From NCBI GenBank assembly GCA_964390555.1, contig CAYMJU010000207.1, forward strand, positions 6,466 to 70,465: DNA of 64,000 nucleotides, read 5' to 3'. Below the pieces are notes generated by a model. It did no database searches. It was not told the DNA's origin and was given only the letters and a program-made list of their open reading frames with translations. Both the position numbers and the translations under genes were made by a program. This DNA comes from an uncultured Acidimicrobiales bacterium. Lineage in GTDB: Bacteria > Actinomycetota > Acidimicrobiia > Acidimicrobiales > SHLQ01. How positions within the stretch are numbered: position 1 is the stretch's first letter; each line of letters starts with the position of its first letter. This document shows, in pieces, positions 6,965-29,733 of the stretch.

Positions 6965-7045
6965 GGTGCCCCTTTTTCTGCCGGCTGGTCGCCGGGTTTC
7001 GCTGTTCGTGCTCCGTTCCGACGGTGGTCGGACCGGCCCCCACGT

Positions 7046-7065
7046 GTTTCCCCACATTCAACTAC
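7046..7065 (+). promoter_or_regulatory. conserved 20-nt box GTTTCCCCACATTCAACTAC in the gmaS-upstream region
   Basis: Matches GTTTCTTCACGTTCAACTCC of the repeated tdm-operon leader (16981-17000 and 12424-12443) at 16 of 20 positions. Confidence 0.35.
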
Positions 7066-9661: not shown

Positions 9662-10477
9662 TTAGAGCGACTCATGCCACACCACCGGGAAGTCACGATC
9701 GTCGAGGGGACCGCCGCCGACCGGGGCCTCGCGGCTGTAGATCGGGTGCCGTACCGTCGAGTGGTGGCGGCTTCCGATCCAGCCGAAGTGGGCGACCACG
9801 CTGCGGCGCTGGCGCGTGGGCGAGGCGTTGGGCGGACTGCCGTGGAACGTCCACCCGTGATGCACCGCGACGCCACCGGCACTCACTTCGATCGGCGTGA
9901 GCAGCGAATCGAAGTCGGCATCAGAGGGGGCCGAGGCGCGGGCGTGGGCGAGCCAGTCGTCGGGCGCGTGGAAGTTGTCGACCATCGGAGCGGGCGGCCA
10001 GCGGTGCGAGCCACGCACGTACCAGACCGTGCCGGCGTCGGCCGCGGTGTCGTCGAGCGCCATCCAACACGTCGTCATGTTCACCGGGTCGAGCCAGCCG
10101 TTGTAGGCGTTGTCCTGGTGGGCGCCGAGCGCCAACCCGTTCGGCGGCTTCCAGAGCACGTTGTCCTGGAGGATCCGGACCCCATCGAGGCCCGCGAGCC
10201 GGGCGACGAGCTCACCGATCCTCGGCGACAGAACCGTTGCGGCGACGGTCGGGTCGGCCCTCCAGGTGTTGCACAACTGGCGCGTACGGTCCGGCGACGT
10301 GACTCCGTGCGTGTAGTTGACCTCGTCGGGCGGGGTCCCGGTCACCCACGCGTGATCGAAGAACAGCGGCTCGAATCGCGCCCGCAACGCGCCGACCGTT
10401 GCCGTGTCGAGCACGTCGGGGATCACCACGAACCCGTCGCGCTCGAATGACTCGACCTGCTCGTCGGTCGGGACCAC
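9662..10477 (-). CDS. phytanoyl-CoA dioxygenase (PhyH) family Fe(II)/2-oxoglutarate oxygenase
   Basis: PhyH-like layout: FERDGFVVIPDVL near the N-terminus, HQDNAY (HxD iron ligands) and a later GSH. Confidence 0.8.
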   Translation of the reverse strand: MVPTDEQVESFERDGFVVIPDVLDTATVGALRARFEPLFFDHAWVTGTPPDEVNYTHGVTSPDRTRQLCNTWRADPTVAATVLSPRIGELVARLAGLDGVRILQDNVLWKPPNGLALGAHQDNAYNGWLDPVNMTTCWMALDDTAADAGTVWYVRGSHRWPPAPMVDNFHAPDDWLAHARASAPSDADFDSLLTPIEVSAGGVAVHHGWTFHGSPPNASPTRQRRSVVAHFGWIGSRHHSTVRHPIYSREAPVGGGPLDDRDFPVVWHESL

Positions 10478-17034: not shown

Positions 17035-18369
17035 ATGGCGCTTCCCGACAGCGCTCGATTCGTCGTGATCGGCGCCGGCGTCCACGGTCTCTCGACCGCC
17101 TATCACCTGGCGAAAGAGCTCGAGGCCGCCGGTACCGGCTGGGGTGGCGACGTGGTCGTACTCGACAAGAACGGCATCGGCGCCGGAGCCAGCGGCATCG
17201 CCTGTGGTGTCGTGCGGAACAACTACTACCAACCGGCGATGCGCCGGCTGATGGCCCACTCGGTCGGCGTGTGGGAGCAGCACGCCGAGCGCTTGTCGTA
17301 CCACTCCGTCGGCTACATGCAGATCTCGCCCGAGGTCATGCACGAACAGGTCGCCACCATCTACGAGCAGGAACAGGCGATCGGGTACCCGTCGACCTTC
17401 GTAGAGGGCGAGGCGGCGTGTCGCGACTACATGCGGGCCATGTTCCCCGACTGGCAGGCCCGCAACATCACGACGGTGCTGCACGAGGACCGGGGCGGGT
17501 ACGCCAACAACATGGCATCGATGACCGGCCTGGCCGCCATGGCCCGCGCCGAGGGAGTCCGCATCTTCACCGGTACCCGAGTCACCGGTTTGCGCACCGA
17601 CAACTCAGGCTCGGTGACCCACGTCGAGACCGACCAGGGCACGATCGCCTGCGAGCAGGTCGCAGTGGGCGCGGGACCTTGGGTCCGCGACTTCTGGCGC
17701 ATGCTCGACCTGCCCGACACGGTGACCGTCGTCGGCCGAGACGGCAACCGTTACGAGCGGCCGATGTGGGTGTACTGGTGCCTCGAGGAGGGGACGCTCG
17801 GCGTCGACCCCGACTACTTGTCTCTACCCGACGGCCGCATGCCGCCGGTCATCCACGTCGACACTGACGCTCCGCTCTACGATGACGACGGCGGACTCGT
17901 GACCGACCAGCTCTGGGGCATCTATTTCAAGCCCGACACCAACTTCGGCGGTGTGCAGGGCGGGGCTATGCCCTACATCGTCGACAAGCCACTCGACCAG
18001 GTCGCCGTCGACCCTTACGGCACGTCGAGCCCCGACTTCATCGTGGGCGACGATTTCAAGCGCATGTGGACCTCGGCGCTCGCGCACTGCCTCAAACGGT
18101 TCGAGGGCATGAGCCACCTGTACAAGGACGAGCCGTCCGGTGGCCTCGGCTGCTTCACTCCAGACAGCTTCCCGGTCATCGACTACGCCCGCGACAACGC
18201 GTACGTGATCGCCGATTCGAACCACGGCTACAAGATGATCGGCGTGGGGCAGCTGGTGGCCAGGGCCATGCTCGGCCAGCCGCAGGAGATCTTGCACCCG
18301 TTCCGGTTCGGCCGCTACGCCGACGGCGACCTGCACCCGACCAGCAACTCACCCTTTCCCTGGTCCTAG
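17035..18369 (+). CDS. FAD-dependent oxidoreductase (DAO family, sarcosine-oxidase-beta-like)
   Basis: N-terminal Rossmann motif VVIGAGVHGLSTAYHLA. Overall resemblance to the beta subunit / monomeric amine oxidase family. ATG 17035 is preceded by GGGGGA. Confidence 0.85.
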   Translation: MALPDSARFVVIGAGVHGLSTAYHLAKELEAAGTGWGGDVVVLDKNGIGAGASGIACGVVRNNYYQPAMRRLMAHSVGVWEQHAERLSYHSVGYMQISPEVMHEQVATIYEQEQAIGYPSTFVEGEAACRDYMRAMFPDWQARNITTVLHEDRGGYANNMASMTGLAAMARAEGVRIFTGTRVTGLRTDNSGSVTHVETDQGTIACEQVAVGAGPWVRDFWRMLDLPDTVTVVGRDGNRYERPMWVYWCLEEGTLGVDPDYLSLPDGRMPPVIHVDTDAPLYDDDGGLVTDQLWGIYFKPDTNFGGVQGGAMPYIVDKPLDQVAVDPYGTSSPDFIVGDDFKRMWTSALAHCLKRFEGMSHLYKDEPSGGLGCFTPDSFPVIDYARDNAYVIADSNHGYKMIGVGQLVARAMLGQPQEILHPFRFGRYADGDLHPTSNSPFPWS

Positions 18370-18399
18370 ACCAGCAACGATGTCCGGGGGGACGACGAC

Positions 18400-19806
18400 A
18401 TGACCGACAAGATGTGGGGCGACGCGCCGTTCTGGGGGCTGGGGTACGAGTGGGACCCGAACTGGGTGCTCACCGACCGCCAGCAGGAGCTGCGGTCGCT
18501 GCTCATCGACCTGTGCCAGTCCGAGATGCGGGCCAACGCCAAAGTCAGCGACGACAACCTCGTGTACCCCCGCGCCAACCTCGAGCTGCTCGGCCGGCAC
18601 GGCTTCCTAGGGCTCACCGTGCCCGAGGAGTACGGCGGGCTGGGCGAGAACCACGTGGCCTACTCGATGGTGTGCGAGACCATCGCCCGCTACGGCTGCG
18701 CGTCGACGGCCATGTGCTACGTGATGCACATGGGGGCGGTCAACGCGATCATGCTGCGCCCAACCGATTACTTGATCGACAAGTACATCCGGCCGCTTCG
18801 TGACGGCAGGATCGGCACGCTGTCGTACTCGGACCCCGAGACCGGGTCGCACTTCTGGTACCCGATCTCGTCAGGGGCCGAGCGGGCCGACGGCGGGTTC
18901 AACGTTCGGAAGAAGGCGAGCTGGACCACCTCGGCCGGGTTCGCCGACTGGTACGTCGTGCAGACCACCAGCCCCGACTTCGCGTGGTACGACGACCTGT
19001 CGGTGTTCGTGGTCGACGCCGAGCACGCCAACGCCCAACCCGAGCTGTGGGACGCCATCGGCTTGCGGGGCAACCAGTCGGGCAGCCTCGACGTCAACGG
19101 CTTCGTCCCGGACGACCAGCTCATCGGACAGGTGGGCGACGGCGCCTACTCCAACGACGAGTCGGTCGACCCCTGGTTCCTGATCGGTTCGTCGTCGGTG
19201 TGGAACGGGATCTCCCTCGGGGCGATCGACATCGCCAAGCGCCACACGACGGCCAAGAAGCACGTCGATGTCGGCCTCCGGGTGTGCGACTACCCCACCA
19301 TCCAGGACTACGTGGGCGAGGCGGTCATCGACACCAACGCCAGTCGAATGTTCGTTACGAGCGTGGCCCAGGCGTGCGACGCGGCCACCGACAACAACAC
19401 CCGGCGCCTCGACGGGGCCACGGCGCGGGCCGACTTCTTGCACTGGGCGTGGCAGATCAAGTTCGTCGCGGCCAAGAACGTGGCCCACGTGTGCGACAAG
19501 ATGCTCCACGCCTGCGGCGGCTCGGGCTTCAAGCGCAACATGGAGCTCGAGCGCTACCTGCGCGACGGCAAGGCCGGTTGGGTCATGGGCCCGACCAACG
19601 AGGTGCTCCGCCAGTTCGTCGGCAAGGCGGTGCTGCTCGGCTTCGACAGCCTCGACTACTGGAACCAGACCGTGAACCATCGGGCGATCGACAACGAGGT
19701 GAAGAAGCTCGACCCCGAGGCCAAGCGGGCGCTGGCCGAACGCTTGTTGTCCGAGGCGACGGCCGACGAGACCGCCGGCAAGAAGGGCACGGTCAAGGTC
19801 GGCTGA
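18400..19806 (+). CDS. acyl-CoA dehydrogenase-fold flavoprotein, probably not a classical ACAD
   Basis: ACAD-like N, middle and C domains (GFLGLTVPEEYGGLG, SDPETGSH, CGGSGF...RYLRDGKAG). The MCAD-type catalytic Glu position (YEGT) reads MGPT. About 50 aa of extra C-terminal tail. Confidence 0.75.
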   Translation: MTDKMWGDAPFWGLGYEWDPNWVLTDRQQELRSLLIDLCQSEMRANAKVSDDNLVYPRANLELLGRHGFLGLTVPEEYGGLGENHVAYSMVCETIARYGCASTAMCYVMHMGAVNAIMLRPTDYLIDKYIRPLRDGRIGTLSYSDPETGSHFWYPISSGAERADGGFNVRKKASWTTSAGFADWYVVQTTSPDFAWYDDLSVFVVDAEHANAQPELWDAIGLRGNQSGSLDVNGFVPDDQLIGQVGDGAYSNDESVDPWFLIGSSSVWNGISLGAIDIAKRHTTAKKHVDVGLRVCDYPTIQDYVGEAVIDTNASRMFVTSVAQACDAATDNNTRRLDGATARADFLHWAWQIKFVAAKNVAHVCDKMLHACGGSGFKRNMELERYLRDGKAGWVMGPTNEVLRQFVGKAVLLGFDSLDYWNQTVNHRAIDNEVKKLDPEAKRALAERLLSEATADETAGKKGTVKVG

Positions 19807-22007
19807 TGCCGGTCGAGCGGGTGCTCTTTCCGGGGCTGGTTCCCCGGGTGCCGGGGCTCGAGCGATATCGGGTCGAGCCCGGCGAGGCCCGCCGACTCGA
19901 TCTGCGGCCGGGCGACGAGCTGCGGCTCCGCGACCCCGAAGGACTCACCGCGGCCACCATCACCGTGACCGATGGTCGCCTCGATGGCGAAGGCGGCCGG
20001 ATCGACGTGTTCGGTGCCGGCTCGCCGGCCGGGGCATCGGCGACGTTCGTCTCGTCCGACGGCGCCGCGGTCCTCATCGAGAGCGCGGCGTTCGTCATGG
20101 ACGTCGGTGCGTCGCATCCACCGTCTGCGTTGCGGGTCGAGCTGCAGCGGGCGACTGTCGATCCCGAGTCCGAGCCCCTTCTCCCCGAACCGCTCGCCCT
20201 GCCGCTCGTGCTCGACCGGCGCATCGACCGGGCCACCGCAGCCTCCTACGAGGTGGCCGAGGGGCAGTGGATCCAGATCCTCGACGTCGAGGGCCGGCAG
20301 TGCTCGGACCTGTTGGCGTTCAACGCCCGCCAGCTCCAAGCCGGGCGCGAGCGCGGCATCGACCCCACAACCACCCGCACGCTGCTGGGCGCGCTGTACC
20401 CGGGGCCGGGCCTCTACTCCAAGTACTTCGACCAGGACATGCAGCCGCTCCTCGAAGTCGTGCGCGACACCGTCGGTCGCCACGACACGTTCGGGCTGGC
20501 GTGCACCGCCAAGTACTACGACGACATGGGCTACTTCGGCCACGCCAACTGCAGCGACAACTTCAACGCCGCGCTCGACCGGTTCGGGCTCGAGCCGCGG
20601 CGGGGCTGGCCGGCGATCAACCTCTGGTACAACACGATGCTGATGGGCAACTCCATCACCCTCGACGAGCCCGAGTCCCGACCCGGCGACTACGTGCTGA
20701 TGCGGGCCCTCACCGACCTCGTCGTCGGGTCGTCGGCGTGCCCCGACGACATCGACCCCACCAACGCGTGGAACCCGACCGACATCCACGTGCGGGTGTA
20801 CGACGCCCACCAGACGTTTAGCCGGGCGATCGCCCGCCGAGTCACCCCCGAGGCCGACCCCGTGCTCACCAAAGACACCGCCTTCTCGCCCCGCTGGGGT
20901 GAACTGACCCGCCGCACCACCGAGTACCGGGGCTACTGGCTGCCAACGTCGTTCTCCTCGGAGGGTGCCATCGCCGAGTACTGGGCGTGCCGTGAGCACG
21001 CCGCGGTGATGGACCTGTCGCCGCTGCGCAAGTTCGAGGTCACCGGCCCCGACGCCGAGGCGCTCATGCAATACGCGGTCACCCGCGACATCAAGAAGCT
21101 GGCCGTGGGGCAGGTGGTCTACGCGGCGATGTGCCACCACACGGGCGGCATGATCGATGACGGCACGGTGTTCCGGCTCGGCCCGGATCTGTTCCGCTGG
21201 ATCGGGGGCGAAGAGTACGGCGGCGTGTGGTTGCGAGAGCTCGCCGAGCAGCAGGGCTATCGGGCGTGGGTGAAACAGTCGACCGACCAGCTCCACAACA
21301 TCGCGGTCCAGGGTCCGGCGAGCCGTGACATCGTCGGTTCGATCATCTGGACCCCACCGGCCCAACCGTCGATCGCCGAGCTCGGCTGGTTCAGGTTCGC
21401 TGTCGGCCGCCTCGGTGGCTTCAACGGTCCGGCGCTGATGGTGTCGCGCACGGGCTACTCGGGCGAGCTCGGCTACGAGCTGTTCTGCCACCCCAAGGAC
21501 GCGGTTGCCGTGTGGGACGCCGTGTGGGAATCCGGGCTGCCCCACGGCCTCAGCCCGCTCGGACTCGACGCGCTCGACGTGTTGCGCATCGAGGCCGGGC
21601 TGGTGTTCGCCGGCTACGAGTTCGACGACACCGTCGACCCCTATGCCGCCGGCATCGGGTTCACGGTCGCGCTGTCGTCACCCGACGACTTCGTGGGCAA
21701 GGCCGCGCTGGCCCGCAAGAAGACCAACCCCGATCAGGTGCTCGTGGGGCTCGAACTGTCCGGCAACGAGACCGGGTCGAACGGCGACTGCGTGCACGTC
21801 GGCAAACCCCAGGTCGGCGTGGTCACCAGCGGGTGCCGGTCACCGTGGCTCAGCAAGAACGTCGCCCTCGCCCGGGTGGCCCCCGAGTACGCCGCCATCG
21901 GCACCGAGGTGCAGGTCGGCAAGATCGACGGCCACCAGAAACGCATCCCCGCAAGGGTCGTCCGTTACCCCTTCTACGACCCCGACAAAGTCAAGCCCCG
22001 CAGCTGA
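19806..22007 (+). CDS. tdm: DUF1989 + GcvT (tetrahydrofolate-binding aminomethyltransferase) fusion, trimethylamine-N-oxide demethylase-like
   Basis: 733 aa. The N-terminal half has a DUF1989-type Cys/His-rich core (HDTFGLACTAKYYDDMGYFGHANCSDNFN). The C-terminal half is GcvT-like (VMDLSPLRKFEVTGPDA, SRTGYSGELGYELF, LRIEAGL). This two-domain architecture is the one described for Tdm. TGATG 1-nt overlap with the upstream gene. Confidence 0.75.
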   Translation: MPVERVLFPGLVPRVPGLERYRVEPGEARRLDLRPGDELRLRDPEGLTAATITVTDGRLDGEGGRIDVFGAGSPAGASATFVSSDGAAVLIESAAFVMDVGASHPPSALRVELQRATVDPESEPLLPEPLALPLVLDRRIDRATAASYEVAEGQWIQILDVEGRQCSDLLAFNARQLQAGRERGIDPTTTRTLLGALYPGPGLYSKYFDQDMQPLLEVVRDTVGRHDTFGLACTAKYYDDMGYFGHANCSDNFNAALDRFGLEPRRGWPAINLWYNTMLMGNSITLDEPESRPGDYVLMRALTDLVVGSSACPDDIDPTNAWNPTDIHVRVYDAHQTFSRAIARRVTPEADPVLTKDTAFSPRWGELTRRTTEYRGYWLPTSFSSEGAIAEYWACREHAAVMDLSPLRKFEVTGPDAEALMQYAVTRDIKKLAVGQVVYAAMCHHTGGMIDDGTVFRLGPDLFRWIGGEEYGGVWLRELAEQQGYRAWVKQSTDQLHNIAVQGPASRDIVGSIIWTPPAQPSIAELGWFRFAVGRLGGFNGPALMVSRTGYSGELGYELFCHPKDAVAVWDAVWESGLPHGLSPLGLDALDVLRIEAGLVFAGYEFDDTVDPYAAGIGFTVALSSPDDFVGKAALARKKTNPDQVLVGLELSGNETGSNGDCVHVGKPQVGVVTSGCRSPWLSKNVALARVAPEYAAIGTEVQVGKIDGHQKRIPARVVRYPFYDPDKVKPRS

Positions 22008-22155: not shown

Positions 22156-23088
22156 CTAGTCCGGGCGGTTTTGGACGTGTTGGAAGCCGAAGCGGCCTTT
22201 GATGCACAGGTTGCCGTGGGTGACCGAGTGGTCCGAGGGGCTGGTGACCTTGACGATCTGGTTGTCCTGCACGTGGAGCTCGAGGTTGCAACCGACCCCG
22301 CAGTAGGGGCAGACCGTGGTGGTCTGGGTCTGGGCGGATTCGTCCCACGTGCCCTCGGCGCGCATGGTGTGCTCGCTCGTGAACATCAGCGCCCCGGTCG
22401 GGCACACGGCGATGCAGTTGCCGCAGTACACGCACGCCGAGTCGGTCAGGTCGACGGCGAACTCGGTCGACACCCGGGCGTCGAACCCCCGGCCGGCCAC
22501 GCCGATGGCGAACGTGTTCTGCCACTGGTCACCGCACGCATCTACGCACTTGTAACACAGGATGCACTTGGCGTAGTCACGCACGTACAGCTCGTTGTCG
22601 TCCTTCACCGGCTGGTGCACGTTGTCGGCCGCGGTGCCGTCGGACGGGTGATGAGGGTGGCTCGGGAACCGGTCGTCACGGTCGGCCGAGCCGGGCGCGG
22701 CCACGCCATAGCGGGTGGGGTCGGCGCCGTATTCGGAGTACCAGTCGTCGATCCGGGGGGTGGTCGACAGGTCGACCGACGAGCCGAGGAACTCGAGCAC
22801 CATCTTGCGGCTGTGTTGGGCCCGATCGGAGTCGGTGCGCACCACCATGCCGGGCTCGACTTTGCGCGAGCACGATGGCACGAGCGTCCGCGACCCCTCG
22901 ACCTCGACCATGCACACCCGGCACGCGTTCTTGGGGGTGAGCGTCTCGCCGTAGCACAAGGTGGGGATGTCGCACCCCTGGCCACGGCACGCCGACAACA
23001 CCGTGGTCCCCTCGGGCACCTTCACCACCTCGCCATCGACGGTTAGCTCGACGAGCCGGACGGGCGCAGCCACACGAACGCTGTTCAC
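22156..23088 (-). CDS. formate dehydrogenase alpha-subunit N-terminal Fe-S module (2Fe-2S, two 4Fe-4S ferredoxin motifs, Mo-pterin-type Fe4S4 domain) as a separate protein
   Basis: Cys motifs C-x-C in the N-terminal 2Fe-2S region, CILCYKCVDAC, CVYCGNCIAVCP and CPYCGVGCNL...GNLCIKGRFG. The protein ends 9 residues after the GRFG motif, where full-length FdsA/FdhF-type proteins continue into the molybdopterin domain. Confidence 0.8.
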   Translation of the reverse strand: MNSVRVAAPVRLVELTVDGEVVKVPEGTTVLSACRGQGCDIPTLCYGETLTPKNACRVCMVEVEGSRTLVPSCSRKVEPGMVVRTDSDRAQHSRKMVLEFLGSSVDLSTTPRIDDWYSEYGADPTRYGVAAPGSADRDDRFPSHPHHPSDGTAADNVHQPVKDDNELYVRDYAKCILCYKCVDACGDQWQNTFAIGVAGRGFDARVSTEFAVDLTDSACVYCGNCIAVCPTGALMFTSEHTMRAEGTWDESAQTQTTTVCPYCGVGCNLELHVQDNQIVKVTSPSDHSVTHGNLCIKGRFGFQHVQNRPD

Positions 23089-23137
23089 GCTGATCTCCTG
23101 TTCGCCTTCTCGCTCGCTACCGCTCGCGGCGTGCGGC

Positions 23138-24922
23138 TCACGAGAAAGCTCCGAGCTTGAGGATCGCGGATTCGATGGCGCTGTGGGCGGTCTGGCCGAG
23201 GCCGCAGATCGAGGCGTCGCGCATCACCTGGCCGATCTCGGCGAGCAGCGCCAGATCGCCCGAGCCGATGCCCGACGCCAACCGGGTGAGCGCTTCCTCC
23301 TGGCGGACGGTGCCCACGCGGCACGGCACGCACTGGCCGCAGCTCTCGTCGCGGAAGAACGCGGCGATGCGACGGAGGAACGGCACCAGTTCGACGGTGT
23401 CGTCGAGCACCATCACCACACCGGAGCCGAGCGTCGCGCCGATGGCGCGGGTGCCCTCGAAGGTGAGCGGCACGTCGATCTCGCTCGGTCCGACGAAAGC
23501 GCCCGCCGCGCCACCCAACAGCACCGCCTGGAGCGACCGACCGGCGGGCAGGCCGCCGGCGAGATCGATCAGCTCGCGAAGCGTCGCCCCGAACGGCACC
23601 TCGTAGACGCCGGGCCGGACCACTCCCCCGCTCACACAGAACAGCTTTGGTCCCGCCGACCCCTGCGTGCCGATCGCCGCGAACGCCGGTCCGCCGTCGA
23701 GCACGATCGGCAGCACGTTCACGAGTGTTTCGACGTTGTTGATCACCGTGGGCTCGTGGAAGAGCCCGGCCTCGACCGGGAACGGGGGCTTGTTGCGCGG
23801 CTCGCCGCGGTAGCCCTCGATCGAGTTGAAGATCGCCGTCTCCTCACCGCAGATGTACGCCCCCGCGCCCCGGAAGATCTCGAGGTCGAAGGCGAAGCCC
23901 ACGCCGGCCACGTCGGGGCCGAGGAAGCCTCGGGCCCGAGCCGACTCGATGGCGGCCTGGAGCGTGGCGGTCGCCCGCGGGTACTCGCCACGCAGGTAGA
24001 TCCAGCCGTGCTCGGCGCCGGTGGCGTAGCCGGCGATGGTCATGGCTTCGATGAGCGAGAACGGGTCGCCCTCGATGATCACCCGGTCCTTGAAGGTGCC
24101 GGGCTCGGACTCATCCGCGTTGCAGATGAGGTGATGGGGCCGCTTGGGCTGGCGGGCCGCGGCGTCCCACTTGCGACCGGCGGGGAAGGCGGCGCCGCCG
24201 CGGCCGAGCAGGTTCGAATCGAGCAGTTCGCGGATCACGCCCGCGGGGCCCAACTCCGCGGCCCGGCGCAACGCCGCGTAGCCGCCACGGGCCCGGTAGT
24301 CATCGAGGCTGGTGGGGTCGACGACACCGACGCGCCGCAACAGCGTGAGAGACGCAGATCCGGCCTGGGGTGTTGCCGCGGCGACCGGCGCCTCGGGCTC
24401 GGGCCAACCGCCGTCGACCGCAGACCGGATCGACACCGGCGTCGCCGGGGCCAGCACTGCCTGGCGGGGCGGGTCGGCGGCTTCGACCAGCAGTGCCGCC
24501 GGGGCCCGTTCGCACAAACCGAGGCACGGCGACTCGTGGGCGCCGTCGGGAACCGTGGCGCCGGCCATCATGCACACCAGGTCGACGCACACGTGCACCT
24601 GTCGCGCCGGCCGCTTGCGCAATGAGAACAGCGCGTAGAAGCTGGCGACGGCGTAGACCTCGGCCGGGGCGACATCGAGGCGTTGGGCCACGTAGTTGAG
24701 CGCTCCCGGCGAGATCCATCCGACCCGGTCGTTGACTGCGTGAAGCGCCGGCAGCAGCCGATGCCGCTGTCGCTTCAGCTCGCCCCCACCCCGCGCCGCA
24801 TGGTGGTCGCTGGCGTCGCGGAGCCCACCGCGCCATCCCTCGGGCGCGGGTCCGAGGAGCGCGTCGACGGCGTCGCGCTCGGCGAGCGAAGCCACATCCG
24901 GCCCGAATTTCAGATCAGGCAC
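23138..24922 (-). CDS. fused NuoE-like/NuoF-like diaphorase subunit (FdsG-FdsB type; NAD, FMN and Fe-S binding)
   Basis: The N-terminal part has the thioredoxin-like 2Fe-2S pattern (VCVDLVC...CLGLCE). The C-terminal part has NuoF motifs (GRGGAAFPAGRKW, ICNADESEPGTFKDR, ESCGQCVPCR). 8-nt overlap with the upstream gene. Confidence 0.85.
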   Translation of the reverse strand: MPDLKFGPDVASLAERDAVDALLGPAPEGWRGGLRDASDHHAARGGGELKRQRHRLLPALHAVNDRVGWISPGALNYVAQRLDVAPAEVYAVASFYALFSLRKRPARQVHVCVDLVCMMAGATVPDGAHESPCLGLCERAPAALLVEAADPPRQAVLAPATPVSIRSAVDGGWPEPEAPVAAATPQAGSASLTLLRRVGVVDPTSLDDYRARGGYAALRRAAELGPAGVIRELLDSNLLGRGGAAFPAGRKWDAAARQPKRPHHLICNADESEPGTFKDRVIIEGDPFSLIEAMTIAGYATGAEHGWIYLRGEYPRATATLQAAIESARARGFLGPDVAGVGFAFDLEIFRGAGAYICGEETAIFNSIEGYRGEPRNKPPFPVEAGLFHEPTVINNVETLVNVLPIVLDGGPAFAAIGTQGSAGPKLFCVSGGVVRPGVYEVPFGATLRELIDLAGGLPAGRSLQAVLLGGAAGAFVGPSEIDVPLTFEGTRAIGATLGSGVVMVLDDTVELVPFLRRIAAFFRDESCGQCVPCRVGTVRQEEALTRLASGIGSGDLALLAEIGQVMRDASICGLGQTAHSAIESAILKLGAFS

Positions 24923-26908
24923 GGCTTCCCTCTCGTTCTGGCCGCGAATCGTGCGCGCCCGCGTCGAGGCTCGCCGCCAGAACGCGGGTGTCGACCACGT
25001 GGTCGAGGAGCTTGTCGATGCGGACGGCGGAGGCTTTGAACTCGGCGGTGCCGGACTTGGGGTCGGTGGCTTCGATGGTGAGGGTGTTGGTGTCGACCTG
25101 GTCGGGGAAGTGGAACGTCATGAACACCAGCCCCGGTCGAAGCGACGGATCGACACGGACGGGGGCCTCGATGGCCCCGCGGCGCGACGTCACGACGACG
25201 ACTTCTCCGTCGATGATCTGCAGACGATCAGCGTCCTCGGGCGAGACGTCGATCGTCTCGCCGAACCGCAACGGACTCTTGTAGCCGCTGGACTGCACGC
25301 CCGTGTTGTAGGAATCCAACCGGCGCCCGGTGGTGAGCCGCAGCGGGAAGTCGGCGCTGAGCTCGTCGACGGGCGGGTCGTCGATCACCACACTGAACGG
25401 GGCGCGCCGCCCGCGCACGTCGGGGTCATCGCTCCACAGCCGGTGGTGCAGGTAGCTCGGTTCGAGCGAGTCCTCCGACGGGCACGGCCACTGGATGCCC
25501 CCTAGCGCCTCGAGCCGGTCGTAGCTCATGCCGGTGTGCATCGGCGACAAGGTGCGCAACTCGTTCCAGATCTCCTCGGCCGACTCGTACCCGAAGTCGT
25601 GCCCGAGCCGGGCGCACAGGTCGAGGAGGATCTCGTGGTCGGCCCGCGCCTCGCCGGGCGGATCGAGCGCCTTGCGAACGCGCTGCACCCGGCGCTCGGA
25701 GTTGGTGACCGTGCCGTCGGTCTCGCACCAGCCGGCGGCCGATGGCAGCACCACGTCGGCGAGCTGCGCGGTCTTGGTAAGGAACATGTCCTGCACGACC
25801 AGATGGTCGAGCCCTTCGAGCAGATGGATGGCGTGTTGGCTGTCGGCCTCGGATTGGGCCGGGTTCTCGCCGATCACGTAGAGCGCCCGGAGGTCACCGC
25901 GGCCCATGGCCTCGAACATGGCGGTGAGGTGCCAGCCGTATCGGTCCTGGATCGTGCACCCCCAAGCGGCGTCGAACTTGGCGCGCACCGCGGGGTCGAG
26001 GATGTCCTGGAACCCGGGCATCCGGTTGGGGATGGCGCCCATGTCGCCACCGCCCTGCACGTTGTTCTGACCCCGCAGGGGGTTGAGCCCCGAGCCGTAG
26101 CGGCCGACGTGGCCGCACAGCAGGGCCAGGTTGATGAGCGCCAGCACGTTGTCGACGGCGTTGTGGTGCTCGGTGATGCCGAGGGTCCAGCAGATCTGGG
26201 CCCGGTCGGCGCGACCCCAGGCGTGGGCCAGCTCGCGGATCGATTCGGCGGGGATCCCCGTCACCTCGCTGCCGCGGGCCAGCGTCCACTCCTCGACCGA
26301 CGCCGCGTACTCGGCGAAGTCGCTGGTGGCCCGCTCGACGAACGCAGTGTTGACGAGCCCGGCATGGATGATCTCGCGGGCGATCGTGTTCGACAGCGCG
26401 ATGTCGGTGCCCACGTGGTTGCCGAGCCACAGGTCGGCGAACTCGGCGGTGCTGGTGCGGCGGGGATCGACCACGAACAGCTTGGCGCCGTTGCGCACAC
26501 CGGCCAGCACGTGGTGAAAGAAGATGGGGTGGGCCTCACGGGCGTTTGAACCCCACAGGACGATCACGTCGGTGTCCTCGACCTCGGCGTAGGACGAGGT
26601 GCCACCACCCGCTCCGAAGACGGTGGCCAGACCGACCACCGAAGGTGCGTGTCACGTTCGATTGCACGAGTCGATGTTGTTCGACCCGATGGCGACCCGC
26701 ATGAACTTCTGCGCCACGAAGTTCATCTCGTTGGTGCTCTTCGAGCACGAGAACACGCCCACGCCGTTCGGCCCGAGCGAGTCACGGGTGCGGGAAAAAC
26801 CGGCGGCCGCGCGGTCGAGCGCCTCGTCCCACGTGGCTGCGCGCAGTTCGCCGTCGACCCGCACGAGGGGGCGGGTGAGCCGCGTGTAGGGCTGATGGGC
26901 GAATCGTG
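24915..26908 (-). CDS. formate dehydrogenase catalytic molybdopterin domain protein, selenocysteine-containing (in-frame TGA at 26654-26652)
   Basis: Two adjacent same-frame ORFs are separated only by TGA: ...IGSNNIDSCNRT-TGA-HAPSVVGLATVFGAGGGTSSY. This is the conserved Cys/Sec active-site context of FdhF/FdsA enzymes. Start ATG 26908 follows GGAGG with 7-nt spacing. The N-terminus (PYTRLTRPLVRVDGELRAATWDEALD) is what normally follows the Fe4S4 domain. Confidence 0.75.
26621..26641 (-). promoter_or_regulatory. SECIS-like hairpin starting 11 nt downstream of the in-frame UGA
   Basis: RNA CGGUGGUC-GGUCU-GGCCACCG forms an 8-bp stem (one G.U pair) with a 5-nt GGUCU loop. The spacing and the GGUC-containing loop resemble the E. 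coli fdhF SECIS as I recall it. Confidence 0.55.
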
Positions 26909-26920
26909 ATCTGGGCATGA

Positions 26921-27415
26921 TCATGCCTCCAATGCGTCGAGGGATCGCAGCTTGCCTTTGAAGAAGATCGACGGCTCGGCGCCGTTGTCGGCGTGGTCGA
27001 GCGCGACCACGCGACCGAGCACGAACAGGTGGTCGCCCATCTCGGTCACCGACTCGATCGCGCAGTCGATCCACGCCACCGCGCCACCGAGGATCGGTGA
27101 ACCGCTCCCGGCCGGCTCCCACGCTACGTCGGCGAACTTGTCGCCGTTGCCCGACTTGGCGAAGCGCCAGCACAGCTCGTCCTGCTCGCTGGACAGCACG
27201 TTGACGCAAAACGAACCCGACTCGGCCATCGCCTGCCACGACACCGAGCCCGACATCGGCAGGAAACCGACGAGGGGCGGGTCGAGCGAAACCGAAGTAA
27301 ACGAGCCGATCGTCGCGCCGACCGGGCCGGCGGGGCCGATTCCCGTCACGATCGTGACCCCCGTGGGGTAGTGCCCGAGCACCTGGCGGAAACGGGCAGG
27401 ATCGATGCTGCTCAC
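26921..27415 (-). CDS. flavin reductase (HpaC/NADH:FMN oxidoreductase-like domain)
   Basis: FRQVLGHYPTGVTIVTG...GSFTSVSLDPPLV is the typical flavin_reduct domain N-terminus. GTG 27415 follows GAGAGGA. Confidence 0.85.
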   Translation of the reverse strand: MSSIDPARFRQVLGHYPTGVTIVTGIGPAGPVGATIGSFTSVSLDPPLVGFLPMSGSVSWQAMAESGSFCVNVLSSEQDELCWRFAKSGNGDKFADVAWEPAGSGSPILGGAVAWIDCAIESVTEMGDHLFVLGRVVALDHADNGAEPSIFFKGKLRSLDALEA

Positions 27416-27432: not shown

Positions 27433-28089
27433 TCAGGTGGATGGTGGTGTGCCATAGGCGATCACGGACAAGAAGCGGATGGGTGTTCGGATCAGTCGGG
27501 TCGGGCCGTGCGGCACGTCGCCGTCGAACTGGAGGGCGTCGCCGCGGCGAAGGTTGTAACGAGCCGCGCCGTGGCCGTACTCGAGCACCCCGTCGAGCAT
27601 GTAGATGAACTCGGTCCCCGCGTGCTGGAACAGCGGGAACACCTCGCTCTCCTCGTTCAACGTGACGAGGAGCGGCTCCATGCGCTTGAACGCGCCGCGC
27701 ATGGCGCCGAGCAGCTGGTAGTCGTGCCCGGATCGAGTGCCGTCGCGGACGATGTCGATGCCCTGGCCGGCGCGCACGAAGATGGCGTCGTGCTCCTCCT
27801 CGAGGCCGCGGAACAGCGCAGTGACCGGCACGTTGATGGCCGACGCGACGCGGGCGAGGGTGCTGAGGCTCGGCGACGCCTGGCCGTTCTCGATCTTCGA
27901 GAGCATGCCCTTGCTGATCCCGGCGGCATCCGCGAGCTGCGCGACGGTGAGACCGAGGGATTGGCGGAACTCCCGTACTCGCTGGGCGATCACGTCGTTG
28001 AGGGCGCGTTCGAGCTGATCGGGATCGATGGCCGTGGCGAGCCGTTCGCGGGCGGCCCCCTCGTCGCTCATCGCGGCCACTGTACCCAC
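27433..28089 (-). CDS. XRE-family HTH + cupin transcriptional regulator (PuuR-like architecture)
   Basis: HTH LTVAQLADAAGISKGMLSKIENG, followed by a C-terminal cupin (HAGTEFIYMLDGVLEYGHG...GDALQFDGDVPHG). First gene of the minus-strand regulator/flavin reductase/FDH string. Confidence 0.85.
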   Translation of the reverse strand: MGTVAAMSDEGAARERLATAIDPDQLERALNDVIAQRVREFRQSLGLTVAQLADAAGISKGMLSKIENGQASPSLSTLARVASAINVPVTALFRGLEEEHDAIFVRAGQGIDIVRDGTRSGHDYQLLGAMRGAFKRMEPLLVTLNEESEVFPLFQHAGTEFIYMLDGVLEYGHGAARYNLRRGDALQFDGDVPHGPTRLIRTPIRFLSVIAYGTPPST

Positions 28090-28209: not shown

Positions 28210-29733
28210 TTGGGGGACCGTATGGATGACGCACACGCCGACTTCGGCACTGGCCTGGTGACCAGCACCGGCCAGCTCGCCAAGGACACGAACTGGTGGG
28301 GAGCCTTCGTGATCGGCCTCTCCGGCACGATCCTGGTGATCACCCTGGTCGGGTTCGCCGTCCAGGCTCTTGGAGGCTTCTCGATCCCTATGTTCGTGGT
28401 CATCACGGGCTTCGGGGTGCTGCTGTGCTATTGCCTGGCCGAGCTCGCCGCCGCCTTTCCCGACCGAACCGGGGGCCTCCCCAGCTACGCATTTGAGACG
28501 TTCAAGCCGCTCGGCGAGAAGGCGGCGACGCACATCGGCGGCTTGTCGACGTGGGGGTACTGGCTGGGCTGGTTCACCGTCGCCCCCATCAACTCGATCA
28601 TCGCCGCTAGCTACATCAGGATCCTGTTCGAGATCCCGGCCGGTAAACAGTTCGATCCGTTCGGTGCCACCTTTGGTCTCCCGCTCGTCACGACGGACTT
28701 CATCATCGGCGTGGTGATCATGCTGGCCATGTTCGTGCCGTGCTTCCTGGGCATCCGGCTGGGTGCCGGGTTCGCGAGCGTCCTGGGCGTCGCGTCGGTG
28801 ATCCCGCTTCTCATCTTGGTGTTGCTCCCGCTCACCCAACCCGGTGACATCGACTTCGGCCGCGTCGACGGTTTCGGCTTTCCCGATGGGGTCGACGGCA
28901 GCTTCAAGCTCATCATCGCATGGGTGTTCATCTACACCTGGTCGGTGCTGGCGATGGAGGCTGCGGCCTGCTACATCGGCGAGTGCAAGGACCCGGCGCG
29001 CGACGCCAAGCTGGCCATGACCGCCGAGGGGTTGTTCGGGTTCTTCATCTACGTCACCGTGCCGCTCATGGTGATTGCGGTTCTGGGCACGGGTGCGGCG
29101 CTGGCCAGCATCGACGCCAAGACGGTGTTCGACGGCTATATCCAGGCCCTGTTTGGCACCTCCGACTTCTGGAAGTGGTTCGTAGGGTTGGCGCTGGTGA
29201 TCGCCCTGCTCCTGTCGGTGCTGAACGCGGTGATGGGTTGCGCCCGAGGGCTGTACCAGAACAGCCACGACGGCATCTTGCCCCGGTGGCTCGGGCACAC
29301 CAACAAGCACGGTTCGCCTGACTACGCCATGTTCTTCAACCTGGGCTGCTCGATCATCCTGTTGCTGTCGGGAACCCCGCTCGAGATCTACATCTTCTCG
29401 AACATGGGCTACCTGTTCGCCGTAGCACTCTCGATGATCGGCTACTGGCTCTACCGGACACGAGGGCTGGCCGACCCCGCACGCCCCGTGAAGATGCCGG
29501 GCTGGATGTCACCCGCCTCGTTGGTCATCGGTGTTTTCTTCCTGTTCTGCTGGATCTACGGTGGATTCTTCTCGGCCGACTTCGTGCTCGGCGACAAGGA
29601 CAAGCGCTACCTGTTCTGGCTGGGGCTCGTGCTCGTCGCCTTGTACTTCCCGCTGTACTGGTGGCGCCAGGCCGAGGACAAGCGACTCGGCACCACCACC
29701 ACCCAGCCGGTTTCCGCCACCGCCGACAGCTGA
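28210..29733 (+). CDS. APC-superfamily amino acid/amine permease
   Basis: 507 aa with about 12 hydrophobic segments. APC-like N-terminal region (WGAFVIGLSGTILV...LCYCLAELAAAFPDRTGG). The start (28210 or ATG 28222) is uncertain. Confidence 0.8.
   Translation: MGDRMDDAHADFGTGLVTSTGQLAKDTNWWGAFVIGLSGTILVITLVGFAVQALGGFSIPMFVVITGFGVLLCYCLAELAAAFPDRTGGLPSYAFETFKPLGEKAATHIGGLSTWGYWLGWFTVAPINSIIAASYIRILFEIPAGKQFDPFGATFGLPLVTTDFIIGVVIMLAMFVPCFLGIRLGAGFASVLGVASVIPLLILVLLPLTQPGDIDFGRVDGFGFPDGVDGSFKLIIAWVFIYTWSVLAMEAAACYIGECKDPARDAKLAMTAEGLFGFFIYVTVPLMVIAVLGTGAALASIDAKTVFDGYIQALFGTSDFWKWFVGLALVIALLLSVLNAVMGCARGLYQNSHDGILPRWLGHTNKHGSPDYAMFFNLGCSIILLLSGTPLEIYIFSNMGYLFAVALSMIGYWLYRTRGLADPARPVKMPGWMSPASLVIGVFFLFCWIYGGFFSADFVLGDKDKRYLFWLGLVLVALYFPLYWWRQAEDKRLGTTTTQPVSATADS

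What the first reader, a model, noticed from the sequence alone, without database searches (positions are those of the whole stretch)
17035..22007. Tdm-like TMAO demethylase operon with unusual flavoenzyme partners in place of Tmm and DmmDABC
Seen in sequence:
- The three genes are tightly coupled (30-nt gap, then a 1-nt TGATG overlap).
- They encode a DAO-family FAD oxidoreductase, an acyl-CoA-dehydrogenase-fold protein, and a 733-aa DUF1989+GcvT fusion.
- In the ACAD-fold protein the MCAD-type catalytic Glu position (YEGT) reads MGPT, and the protein has an extra C-terminal tail.

Established knowledge:
- The DUF1989+GcvT architecture is that of TMAO demethylase Tdm (Methylocella silvestris, marine Roseobacter/SAR11). 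There it sits with the flavin-containing monooxygenase Tmm and the dimethylamine monooxygenase DmmDABC.
- ACAD-fold proteins lacking the catalytic base include two-component flavin N- and S-oxygenases (DszC, nitrososynthases, isobutylamine N-hydroxylase). These need a free flavin reductase.

Inference:
- I recognise no FMO-type Tmm or Dmm-like set anywhere in this window.
- A flavin reductase gene lies 5 kb away (26921-27415) in the same island.
- The FAD oxidoreductase and ACAD-fold protein may therefore form an undescribed route for oxidising TMA and/or DMA that feeds and follows Tdm. For example, an ACAD-fold N-oxygenase could convert TMA to TMAO, and a DAO-type enzyme could convert DMA to MMA.
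Basis: partly seen in the sequence, partly recalled or inferred. Interest (0 to 1): 0.85.

Follow-up and report, generated by a model that had tools for sequence, protein, structure and literature searches.

The report
Tdm operon with unassigned flavoenzyme partners
A real TMAO demethylase gene sits next to an uncharacterised flavoprotein family that probably makes TMAO from trimethylamine with help from a flavin reductase, which would be a second, unrelated enzyme for a step so far assigned only to Tmm.

Summary
The three genes are exactly as described. The third is a true Tdm: it passes the NCBIfam equivalog cut-off, aligns full-length with the solved Paracoccus TDM, and keeps the Zn-Cys3 and Asp residues.

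The ACAD-fold protein has no acidic residue at either classical catalytic-base position. It belongs to a sharply bounded, unnamed family.
- In 73 of 73 related actinobacterial loci, tdm lies directly downstream of it.
- An HpaC-type flavin reductase lies within 10 kb in 43 of 50 loci.
- A paralogous subfamily sits in a tight operon with that reductase.
- Aquatic invertebrates carry the domain fused to an NAD(P)H reductase.
- Three genomes have dmmABC–ACAD(–tdm), with the ACAD-like gene where tmm would be expected.
- Two loci carry it beside a canonical tmm.

No canonical tmm or dmmABC occurs in the window or in 84 actinobacterial loci. The window is a methylated-amine island with two gmaS–mgsABC sets, mgdABCD, FTHFS and a selenocysteine formate dehydrogenase.

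Best reading (about 0.5): a two-component TMA N-oxygenase that feeds Tdm.

The DAO gene's proposed dimethylamine role is weaker. The same DAO occurs without tdm, next to gmaS–mgsABC. No function has been shown.

The parts
17035..18369 (+). DAO-family FAD oxidoreductase (444 aa), first gene of the operon. Its N-terminal half resembles SoxB; its C-terminal half matches no curated family. The substrate is unknown: an N-methyl amine, with N-methylglutamate or dimethylamine as candidates.
   Evidence: Pfam DAO covers residues 9-226 only. The best NCBIfam hit is soxB at 87 bits against a cut-off of 529. The family is about 70% conserved and has only generic names. Copies occur without tdm in L114, L116 and L117.
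18400..19806 (+). ACAD-fold flavoprotein (468 aa) with no catalytic base. Proposed oxygenase component of a two-component methylated-amine (TMA) N-oxygenase.
   Evidence: Domain, family and residue evidence is. The AF2 model has pLDDT 88.9, and its nearest folds are ACADs with TM about 0.85-0.90. tdm lies directly downstream in 73 of 73 loci. Natural fusions to an FNR-type reductase exist.
19806..22007 (+). TMAO demethylase Tdm (733 aa; DUF1989 Zn core plus a GcvT THF-binding domain). Its start overlaps the upstream stop codon by one base (TGATG).
   Evidence: NF053776 scores 1112.3 bits against a cut-off of 1100. PDB 9q59 gives E = 3.5e-253 over residues 62-733. C233, C249, C312, D168 and D314 are kept and F327 is replaced by Y275.
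26921..27415 (-). HpaC/PheA2/StyB-class NAD(P)H:flavin reductase (164 aa). Proposed reductase component. It is the first gene of the convergent formate dehydrogenase operon and overlaps fdhA by ATGA.
   Evidence: Pfam Flavin_Reduct, E = 2e-42. The nearest PDB entries are reductase components of two-component monooxygenases. A homolog lies within 10 kb in 43 of 50 loci.
9662..10477 (-). PhyH-family Fe(II)/2-oxoglutarate dioxygenase (271 aa). It is a conserved member of the gene neighbourhood and a candidate DMA demethylase (inference only).
   Evidence: Pfam PhyH. The family was found in 34 of 85 sequences (84 loci plus the window) by clustering and in 34 of 50 well-flanked loci by tblastn, often right after tdm. 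It lies directly upstream of the ACAD-like gene in about 35 cyanobacterial loci.
27433..28089 (-). HTH_3 plus cupin transcription regulator. Similar regulators (26-32% identical) accompany the ACAD-reductase operons of the paralogous subfamily.
   Evidence: Pfam. It recurs in L003, L004, L006, L007, L082 and L084 and in Hyphomicrobium loci.
28210..29733 (+). APC-family (AA_permease_2) transporter. It is a candidate importer of methylated amines or TMAO. A comparable permease lies next to tdm on a Rhizobium plasmid.
   Evidence: Pfam. The Rhizobium APC permease adjacent to tdm is 29% identical.
22156..26924 (-). NAD-linked formate dehydrogenase operon. The molybdopterin subunit runs 26924-24915 with an in-frame TGA (Sec) at 26654-26652. 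A NuoE/F-like subunit runs 24922-23138 and an Fe-S subunit 23088-22156.
   Evidence: Pfam. The motif CNRT-TGA-HAPSVVGL, at the canonical FdhF selenocysteine position (identified from the reviewer's own knowledge of FdhF), is conserved in L002.
32841..44207 (.). N-methylglutamate pathway set 1 plus C1 handling. It comprises a gmaS-like gene (32841-34361, minus strand), mgsABC (34386-37311, + strand), sarcosine-oxidase-type mgdABCD-like genes (about 37532-42441, + strand) and formate-THF ligase (about 42522-44207, + strand).
   Evidence: Pfam hits are Gln-synt_C, GATase_6/7, GXGXG, Glu_synthase, DAO, Fer2_4+SO_alpha_A3+GCV_T, and FTHFS.
2366..7057 (-). Second gmaS-like plus mgsABC-like set.
   Evidence: Pfam hits are Gln-synt_C, GATase_6/7, GXGXG and Glu_synthase.

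Best explanation
The window carries a methylated-amine catabolic island.

Proposed pathway:
1. The ACAD-fold protein (18400-19806) is the oxygenase half of a two-component flavin monooxygenase. The HpaC-type flavin reductase (26921-27415) supplies its reduced flavin. It most likely N-oxygenates trimethylamine to TMAO, the step done elsewhere by the unrelated FMO-type Tmm.
2. Tdm (19806-22007) then splits TMAO into dimethylamine and methylene-THF.
3. Dimethylamine is demethylated by a non-Dmm enzyme. The candidates are the PhyH-type dioxygenase and the DAO flavoenzyme.
4. Methylamine goes through GmaS, MgsABC and Mgd.
5. C1 units leave through FTHFS and a selenocysteine formate dehydrogenase. 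That enzyme would also regenerate NADH for the reductase.

Shown: gene identities, residue conservation and synteny. Inferred: every substrate assignment except that of Tdm.
For: **Tdm identity.** It passes the NCBIfam equivalog cut-off and matches the solved TDM over its full length, with Cys3-Zn and Asp residues conserved.

**ACAD-like protein.**
- G397 lies at the MCAD Glu position and W259 at the IVD Glu position. The flavin-contact SWTTS motif is kept.
- The fold is confirmed.

**Link to tdm.**
- tdm lies directly downstream in 73 of 73 actinobacterial loci.
- tdm lies within 10 kb in 46 of 61 loci of the 61-67% subfamily, in Cyanobacteria, Alphaproteobacteria, Acidobacteriota and others.

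**Dependence on a reductase.**
- Flavin_Reduct lies within 10 kb in 43 of 50 loci.
- The paralogous subfamily forms ACAD-reductase operons in Hyphomicrobium.
- Natural fusions to FAD_binding_6 plus NAD_binding_1 occur in invertebrates.
- The window reductase belongs to the class that serves two-component monooxygenases.

**Which step.**
- dmmABC-ACAD(-tdm) operons in L166, L177 and L180 leave only the Tmm step unfilled.
- DAO and PhyH occur without tdm. In the 77-84% subfamily, all 73 loci with enough downstream sequence have tdm directly downstream. In more distant subfamilies some loci show no tdm within 10 kb.
- No Tmm or DmmABC hit was found in the window or in the first 112 related loci, 84 of them actinobacterial.

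**Context.** The NMG pathway, FTHFS and FDH are in the window.

**Chemistry (established knowledge).** A flavin C4a-hydroperoxide readily N-oxygenates tertiary amines.
Against: - No enzyme of this family has been characterised, and no paper in the searchable library mentions it.
- By sequence profile the family is closer to true short-chain ACADs (265 bits) than to the ACAD-fold N-oxygenase KijD3 (155 bits). DszC scores only 41 bits against the window protein in the NCBIfam scan.
- L187 and L195 carry a canonical Tmm next to the ACAD-like gene, together with Tdm and a reductase. That implies redundancy or a different role.
- Some loci have no reductase within 10 kb, for example L081 and L121.
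- Some family members have no tdm nearby, for example L120 and L201.
- In the window the reductase is translationally coupled to fdhA, not to the oxygenase.
- Whole-genome absence of tmm was not tested.
Confidence: 0.5

Rival explanations
1. The ACAD-like protein plus reductase is the dimethylamine monooxygenase. It acts after Tdm and replaces DmmABC. TMA oxidation is done elsewhere, or only TMAO is imported.
For: L187 and L195 have canonical Tmm, Tdm, the ACAD-like gene and a reductase, but no Dmm in view. Strict adjacency to tdm fits an enzyme that takes the Tdm product. No Dmm lies in the window or in the actinobacterial loci.
Against: Three dmmABC-ACAD(-tdm) operons would then carry two enzymes for one step. 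From established chemistry, flavin hydroperoxides N-hydroxylate secondary amines to hydroxylamines and nitrones rather than giving methylamine. PhyH and DAO are available candidates for this step.
Confidence: 0.12
2. The enzyme is a broad or iterative N-oxygenase. It oxygenates both TMA and DMA, and Tdm cleaves both TMAO and N,N-dimethylhydroxylamine. The pair alone would then take TMA down to methylamine.
For: This reconciles co-occurrence with either canonical enzyme. It also fits minimal cyanobacterial cassettes that hold only ACAD, Tdm and a small unknown protein.
Against: There is no evidence that Tdm accepts the hydroxylamine. The widespread presence of PhyH and DAO suggests that a separate DMA-level enzyme is needed.
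Confidence: 0.1
3. The ACAD-like protein is an amine dehydrogenase or oxidase. It oxidises a C-N bond without inserting oxygen, for example TMA or DMA to an iminium ion and then formaldehyde, as nitroalkane oxidase does for a non-CoA substrate. The nearby reductase would be unrelated.
For: Its nearest sequence and structure neighbours are dehydrogenases. The flavin-binding motifs are retained. Some loci lack a reductase.
Against: Fusions to an NAD(P)H-dependent reductase and ACAD-reductase operons point to electron input, not output. No ETF genes lie in the window. A direct TMA demethylase would make Tdm unnecessary, yet the two are inseparable.
Confidence: 0.1
4. It is an ordinary acyl-CoA or acyl-carrier dehydrogenase paralog of the Rv1679/FadE16 type. 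Its link to tdm would be coincidental or regulatory.
For: The best NCBIfam hit is the Rv1679 family at 219.6 bits. Public annotations say 'acyl-CoA dehydrogenase family protein'.
Against: The score is far below the 600-bit cut-off. Both catalytic-base positions are non-acidic. Adjacency to tdm in 73 of 73 loci across classes, and recurrence in other phyla, is not coincidence. The contexts contain no beta-oxidation genes.
Confidence: 0.08
5. It is an NAD(P)H-driven reductase of N-oxides or hydroxylamines, for example TMAO to TMA, rather than an oxygenase.
For: Fusion to an NADH-reductase module fits reductive chemistry equally well. A MOSC-domain protein lies between the ACAD-like gene and tdm in L129. 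From my own knowledge, the MOSC family includes N-oxide and N-hydroxy reductases.
Against: It would compete with Tdm for TMAO within a single, translationally coupled operon. No ACAD-fold N-oxide reductase is known.
Confidence: 0.05

Closest known systems
Aerobic TMA pathway Tmm-Tdm-DmmDABC plus GmaS/MgsABC/MgdABCD of Methylocella silvestris, Ruegeria pomeroyi and Rhizobium (PMC5520151; Rhizobium plasmid locus L113)
   Same: Tdm is orthologous (54-60% identity, same catalytic residues). An APC permease lies near tdm. NMG pathway genes and C1/THF handling genes are in the same island. The overall pathway logic is the same.
   Different: No FMO-type Tmm and no DmmA, DmmB or DmmC occur in the window or in 84 related actinobacterial loci. 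In their place are an ACAD-fold protein, an HpaC-type flavin reductase, a PhyH dioxygenase and a stand-alone DAO flavoenzyme.
ACAD-fold (group D) two-component flavin monooxygenases: DszC, the nitrososynthases KijD3 and DnmZ, and isobutylamine N-hydroxylase
   Same: It has the ACAD three-domain fold without the catalytic glutamate. It is associated with a small Flavin_Reduct-family reductase. The heteroatom (N or S) oxygenation chemistry would suit TMA.
   Different: It does not cluster with them. DszC scores 41 bits (NCBIfam) and KijD3 155 bits, against 265 bits for true SCADs in the profile search. It has family-specific N-terminal (KMWG..FWGLGYEWDPxW) and C-terminal (LDYWNQ...KKLD) extensions. 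The proposed substrate, a tertiary methylamine, would be new for the fold.
Bona fide acyl-CoA dehydrogenases (SCAD, IVD, Rv1679/FadE16 family)
   Same: They are the closest sequences and folds, with TM 0.85-0.90. The flavin-contact motifs are retained.
   Different: G397 and W259 replace the MCAD-type and IVD-type catalytic Glu. The protein falls below every NCBIfam cut-off. There is no ETF or beta-oxidation context. It is tied to tdm and to a flavin reductase.
Self-sufficient fused flavin monooxygenases such as StyA2B (oxygenase fused to its reductase; from my own knowledge)
   Same: The invertebrate homologs join the oxygenase-like domain to an NAD(P)H-dependent reductase in a single chain.
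   Different: The fused reductase is of the FNR/cytochrome-b5-reductase type, not the Flavin_Reduct type. The bacterial window protein is not fused.

Membership tests
TMAO demethylase (Tdm) | DUF1989 core plus GcvT THF-binding domain architecture | tested here: met
   Pfam places DUF1989 at 140-306, GCV_T at 366-619 and GCV_T_C at 646-725.
TMAO demethylase (Tdm) | Score above the curated equivalog cut-off of NCBIfam NF053776 | tested here: met
   The score is 1112.3 bits against a cut-off of 1100, with profile positions 99-762 of 763 matched. It only just passes.
TMAO demethylase (Tdm) | Homology to a solved or characterised TDM over the catalytic half as well as the GcvT half | tested here: met
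   PDB 9q59, 9q5l and 9q5a align to residues 62-733 with E = 3.5e-253.
TMAO demethylase (Tdm) | 3Cys:Zn site (C285, C301, C365) and substrate residues D220, D367 and F327 of Paracoccus TDM | tested here: met
   C233, C249, C312, D168 and D314 are conserved, and F327 is replaced by Y275.
TMAO demethylase (Tdm) | TMAO to DMA plus HCHO/CH2-THF activity | not testable with these tools
   This needs an enzyme assay.
Acyl-CoA dehydrogenase (true ACAD) | Three-domain ACAD fold with flavin-contact motifs | tested here: met
   Pfam finds the N, M and C domains. The AF2 model has pLDDT 88.9, and its top Foldseek hits are ACADs. The SWTTS motif is conserved.
Acyl-CoA dehydrogenase (true ACAD) | Catalytic glutamate at the MCAD-type (YEGT) or IVD-type (LDxER) position | tested here: not met
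   G397 and W259 occupy these positions. M-G/A-P is found in all 18 diverse relatives aligned.
Acyl-CoA dehydrogenase (true ACAD) | Passes a curated family cut-off | tested here: not met
   The best hit is Rv1679_FadE16 at 219.6 bits against 600. All other hits are at or below 103 bits.
Acyl-CoA dehydrogenase (true ACAD) | ETF or beta-oxidation partners in the gene context | tested here: not met
   No ETF genes lie in the 64-kb window. The neighbours are methylated-amine genes.
ACAD-fold two-component flavin monooxygenases (group D) | ACAD fold without the dehydrogenase catalytic base | tested here: met
ACAD-fold two-component flavin monooxygenases (group D) | A dedicated NAD(P)H:flavin reductase partner | tested here: met
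   Flavin_Reduct lies within 10 kb in 43 of 50 loci. It is operonic in the paralogous subfamily. Fused FNR-type reductases occur in animals. The reductase belongs to the HpaC/StyB class.
ACAD-fold two-component flavin monooxygenases (group D) | Sequence clustering with characterised members (DszC, KijD3/DnmZ, IBAH, HsaA) | tested here: not met
   NCBIfam gives DszC 41, HsaA 48 and SfnB 66 bits. In the profile search KijD3 scores 155 bits against 265 for SCAD. 5z8t, an ACAD-fold 'flavin-containing monooxygenase', scores 85 bits against 96 for the best ACAD.
ACAD-fold two-component flavin monooxygenases (group D) | Substrate oxygenation that depends on O2 and reduced flavin | not testable with these tools
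   This needs biochemistry.
Tmm (class B FMO) and DmmDABC | A homolog is present in the window or island | tested here: not met
   tblastn with Rhizobium Tmm, DmmA, DmmB and DmmC found no hit at E <= 1e-4 in the window or in the first 112 related loci, 84 of them actinobacterial. DmmD matches only the GcvT domains of Tdm and MgdC. The rest of the genome is unknown.
Sarcosine oxidase beta / NMG dehydrogenase subunit A (for the DAO gene) | Full-length match above the cut-off, with adjacent SoxD, SoxA and SoxG-type subunits | tested here: not met
   TIGR01373 scores 87 bits against 529 and covers only the N-terminal half. No SoxD, SoxA or SoxG gene is adjacent. A separate mgdABCD-like set lies at about 37.5-42.4 kb.

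The most novel reading that the evidence does not exclude
This ACAD-fold family would be a previously unrecognised, widely distributed trimethylamine N-oxygenase. In bacteria it works as a two-component enzyme feeding Tdm, in soil Actinomycetota, Cyanobacteria, Acidobacteriota and Alphaproteobacteria. In crustaceans, including a hadal amphipod, and in barnacles, krill, corals, brachiopods and annelids, it is fused to an NADH-dependent reductase. There it would be an enzyme that makes the osmolyte and piezolyte TMAO.
Probability: 0.22. Interest if true: 0.9.

Novelty: new variant of a known kind. Interest (0 to 1): 0.7.

Why it matters
- **Gene-based estimates of TMA turnover.** They rest on tmm, tdm and dmm. 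If an unrelated flavoenzyme does the TMA oxidation step in Actinomycetota, Cyanobacteria and other soil and freshwater phyla, surveys that use tmm as the marker miss much of the capacity. More than 500 species-level genomes were hit in each of two subfamilies.
- **The dimethylamine step.** The known absence of dmmDABC from many TMA or TMAO users is a recognised bottleneck (PMC5520151). This island offers two concrete candidate enzymes for that step, PhyH and DAO.
- **Animal homologs.** The reductase-fused forms give a testable candidate for TMAO synthesis in invertebrates.
- **Testability.** The family is sharply defined, highly conserved and present in cultivable strains, so direct tests are feasible.

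Tried and rejected
- **First AF2 run.** The run with 15 near-identical homologs gave pLDDT 44.5 and was discarded. A 56-sequence alignment fixed this.
- **Contig look-up.** The window's own ACAD protein is not on record in the contig index.
- **Literature.** Four literature searches for a described ACAD-type TMA or DMA oxygenase, or for tdm in Actinobacteria, found nothing relevant. A search for crustacean TMAO synthesis also found nothing.
- **Alternative catalytic base.** I considered D257 as an IVD-type base. The alignment to IVD puts W259, not an acid, at that position.
- **Promoter and terminator scan.** The scan of the operon was uninformative.
- **DAO neighbours.** I tried to settle the DAO role from its nearest-neighbour distances. 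The result was mixed: adjacent to ACAD 7 times, to PhyH 4, to gmaS/mgs 3 and to tdm 2.
- **PhyH versus DmmABC.** They were never seen together, but only 3 loci carry Dmm, so this is not significant.
- **PhyH function.** PDB neighbours of PhyH (SnoK, MysH, PHYHD1) gave no clue to its function.
- **Small cyanobacterial protein.** The conserved 156-168-aa protein after tdm in cyanobacteria has no Pfam family.
- **Whole-genome absence.** Absence of tmm and dmm from whole genomes could not be tested, because only about 10 kb on either side of each match can be fetched.

Full report
**1. Observation**

The three ORFs are real and lie at the stated coordinates. The window is 65-70% G+C.
- The DAO gene ends with TAG at 18369.
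- Thirty bases later, after a G-rich stretch, the ACAD-like gene starts at 18400.
- Its TGA overlaps the ATG of the third gene, as TGATG at 19804-19808.
- Pfam finds DAO (N-terminal half only), Acyl-CoA_dh_N/M/1, and DUF1989+GCV_T+GCV_T_C.

**2. The third gene is a genuine Tdm**
- It scores 1112 bits on the NCBIfam equivalog 'trimethylamine N-oxide demethylase'. The cut-off is 1100, and almost the whole profile is matched.
- It aligns from residue 62 to its end with the cryo-EM structures of Paracoccus TDM, 9q59 and 9q5a (E = 3.5e-253).
- The paper on that structure names C285, C301 and C365 as the Zn site. It names D220, F327 and D367 as substrate and product contacts (PMC13619132). In the window protein these are C233, C249, C312, D168, Y275 and D314.
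- The refutation condition 'aligns only in the GcvT half' is therefore not met.

**3. The ACAD-fold protein**
- A second AlphaFold run on a 56-sequence alignment gave a confident model (pLDDT 88.9, pTM 0.90).
- Its best Foldseek matches are acyl-CoA dehydrogenases, with TM about 0.85-0.90 on the target.
- The MCAD-type catalytic Glu position is G397, in the invariant motif WVMGPTNEVLRQF.
- In the alignment to an isovaleryl-CoA dehydrogenase, the IVD-type Glu (LDyER) falls on W259. Neither classical base is present.
- The same M-G/A-P motif is found in all 18 diverse relatives aligned.
- The best curated family is Rv1679/FadE16, at 220 bits against a cut-off of 600. DszC, HsaA and SfnB score 41-66 bits.
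- A profile of the family scores true short-chain ACADs at about 265 bits and the nitrososynthase KijD3 at 155 bits.

If it is an oxygenase, it is an independent offshoot of the ACADs and not a member of the known oxygenase clades.

An exhaustive search of 1.8 billion cluster representatives shows a sharply bounded family. Full-length relatives are at 65, 48, 46, 40 and 37% identity, and below that come ordinary ACAD-like proteins at 36% or less. Family-specific N- and C-terminal extensions are shared only within this group. Every public name is generic.

**4. Synteny**

A scan of one genome per species found at least 525 relatives that are 77-84% identical. They come from Gaiellaceae, other Thermoleophilia, Ilumatobacteraceae, Streptosporangiaceae, Solirubrobacteraceae and unclassified Actinomycetota.
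- In all 73 loci with at least 2.5 kb downstream, tdm follows directly on the same strand.
- Among the 50 loci with at least 8 kb on both sides, 43 have a Flavin_Reduct homolog, 34 a PhyH-type dioxygenase, 28 the window-type DAO and 23 mgsC.
- Contig gene calls show the pair embedded in gmaS / mgsABC / sox-like mgdABCD / FTHFS clusters.
- A second subfamily, 61-67% identical with at least 590 relatives, occurs in Cyanobacteria, Dongiaceae, Zavarzinia, Armatimonadota, Gemmatimonas, Latescibacterota, Acidobacteriota and Verrucomicrobiota. In it, tdm lies within 10 kb in 46 of 61 loci.
- Cyanobacteria show two arrangements. One is PhyH - ACAD - copper amine oxidase - Tdm. The other is a bare ACAD - Tdm - small-protein cassette.

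**5. Evidence that the protein takes electrons from NAD(P)H**
- *Reductase class.* The window reductase belongs to the HpaC/PheA2/StyB/TftC class that serves two-component monooxygenases.
- *Paralogous subfamily.* This subfamily is 46% identical and occurs in Gaiellales, Hyphomicrobium (including H. facile DSM 1565) and Rhodospirillaceae. It has no tdm nearby. In its proteobacterial members the gene is followed immediately by a reductase 39-40% identical to the window's, with an HTH-cupin regulator upstream. In H. facile the neighbours include a DAO-GcvT fusion, an aldehyde dehydrogenase and an ABC transporter.
- *Natural fusions.* The domain is joined to FAD_binding_6 plus NAD_binding_1 in many aquatic invertebrates. 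These include Homarus, Penaeus, Macrobrachium, Scylla, Procambarus, the hadal amphipod Hirondellea gigas, barnacles, krill, Owenia, Lingula, reef corals and a chiton.
- *Tree.* A neighbour-joining tree puts the lobster protein next to the tdm-linked bacterial clade.

**6. Which step?**

The window itself holds two gmaS-mgsABC sets, an mgdABCD-like set, FTHFS, an APC permease, an HTH-cupin regulator and a formate dehydrogenase operon. It has no FMO or Dmm.

I took canonical Tmm, DmmA, DmmB and DmmC from a Rhizobium plasmid. They gave no tblastn hit in the window or in the first 112 related loci, 84 of them actinobacterial.

The second subfamily gives two opposing observations.
- In L166, L177 and L180 (Armatimonadota and Chthoniobacterales), dmmA-dmmB-dmmC is followed directly by the ACAD-like gene. 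tdm follows in L166 and L177; no tdm hit was seen downstream in L180. Only the Tmm step is unfilled there.
- In L187 and L195 (a Dongiaceae MAG and an unclassified proteobacterial MAG), a canonical Tmm (74-76% identical) sits convergent to the ACAD-like gene, with Tdm and a reductase in the same locus.

I favour TMA to TMAO for four reasons:
- the operonic cases come from two phyla;
- in the tightly conserved actinobacterial subfamily the ACAD-like gene always has tdm directly downstream, unlike DAO and PhyH, although some members of the more distant subfamilies have no tdm nearby;
- TMAO's only route of breakdown in this pathway is through Tdm;
- flavin hydroperoxides N-oxygenate tertiary amines easily (established chemistry).

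The alternative, DMA monooxygenation, is not excluded.

**7. The DAO gene**

Its family is large and about 70% conserved, and it has only generic or automatic names. Copies 68-70% identical occur without the ACAD-like gene or tdm:
- in L114, with a permease, PhyH, gmaS and mgsABC, followed by a stand-alone GcvT protein 49% identical to the C-terminal half of Tdm;
- in L116, after a Rieske oxygenase and soxBDAG and before an aldehyde dehydrogenase;
- in L117, next to a gmaS-like gene.

In L172, L199 and L200 it lies in one block with gmaS-mgsABC where no mgdABCD is in view. An N-methylglutamate-type (or other N-methyl amine) oxidase role is at least as likely as DMA to MMA. Neighbour-distance statistics did not resolve this.

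PhyH is conserved next to tdm or the ACAD-like gene, and was never seen together with DmmABC, though only three loci carry Dmm. It is an alternative candidate for DMA demethylation. This is inference only.

**8. Comparison and novelty**

The pathway logic is that of the known Tmm-Tdm-Dmm-NMG route. What differs is the enzyme set around Tdm. The searchable literature holds no description of this family or of this gene arrangement. I rate it a new variant of a known kind. It would be a probable non-homologous replacement within a known pathway, resting on strong comparative evidence with no biochemistry.

**9. Limits**
- Only about 10 kb on either side of each related locus could be examined.
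- The genome around the window is unknown.
- All substrate assignments except that of Tdm are inferred.
- The link between the animal homologs and TMAO is circumstantial. TMAO levels rise with depth in deep-sea invertebrates (PMC5893861). However, freshwater and terrestrial crustaceans also carry the fusion.

Noticed in passing
window 22156-27415 (minus strand): This is a formate dehydrogenase operon with an in-frame TGA at 26654-26652, in the motif CNRT-U-HAPSVVGL at the FdhF selenocysteine position. The same in-frame stop is present in L002. The usual N-terminal Fe-S part of the alpha subunit is a separate gene placed last. The flavin reductase gene overlaps fdhA by ATGA.
   Followed up: partly
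window 2366-7057 and 32841-42441: There are two separate gmaS-like plus mgsABC-like sets in one 64-kb window, but only one sarcosine-oxidase-type mgdABCD-like set.
   Followed up: partly
P0125, P0140, P0147 and P0416-P0479: The ACAD-like domain (41-52% identical to the window protein) is fused to an FNR/cytochrome-b5-reductase module. These fusions occur in decapods, amphipods (including the hadal Hirondellea gigas), barnacles, krill, an isopod, an ostracod, an annelid, a brachiopod, a chiton and several corals. All are unannotated or misnamed, for example as 'ACAD9-like' or 'NADH-cytochrome b5 reductase'.
   Followed up: partly
L098-L112, e.g. L107 10001-11913 (Hyphomicrobium facile DSM 1565): The paralogous subfamily (46% identical) forms a tight ACAD-like plus flavin reductase operon without tdm. 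In H. facile its neighbours are HTH-cupin and AraC regulators, a DAO-FAO_M-GcvT fusion, an aldehyde dehydrogenase and an ABC transporter. It is probably a different amine substrate.
   Followed up: partly
L136 9108-15383, also L145, L162 and L170: Cyanobacteria carry the operon PhyH - ACAD-like - copper amine oxidase - Tdm. The amine oxidase may take the place of the NMG pathway for methylamine.
   Followed up: partly
L121 13246-13716; L119 13349-13855: A conserved protein of 156-168 aa lies directly after tdm in cyanobacteria. The two copies are 39% identical to each other and have no Pfam family.
   Followed up: partly
L114 10001-12564: The window-type DAO is followed by a stand-alone GcvT protein 49% identical to the C-terminal half of Tdm. 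That is closer than to DmmD or MgdC. It could be a split oxidative N-demethylase with THF capture.
   Followed up: no
L129 11552-12352: A MOSC-domain protein lies between the ACAD-like gene and tdm in one cyanobacterium.
   Followed up: no
window 54798-60474: A Rieske/VanA_C-type oxygenase, an Fe-alcohol dehydrogenase, a split TPP enzyme and an aldehyde dehydrogenase lie together. This may be another N- or O-demethylation or choline/betaine-type module.
   Followed up: no
window 13498-17021 (minus strand): Two large overlapping ORFs (701 and 601 aa) lie divergent from the DAO gene. They have no family hit except a weak NosD/beta-helix match. The gene structure here is unresolved.
   Followed up: no
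L118 18729-21037: In this long-read MAG, tdm, PhyH and the DAO-gmaS junction are broken by frameshifts. The gene calls hid tdm until tblastn was run. The locus also has an OpuAC-type ABC transporter after the ACAD-like gene and an Oxidored_FMN gene at its end.
   Followed up: partly
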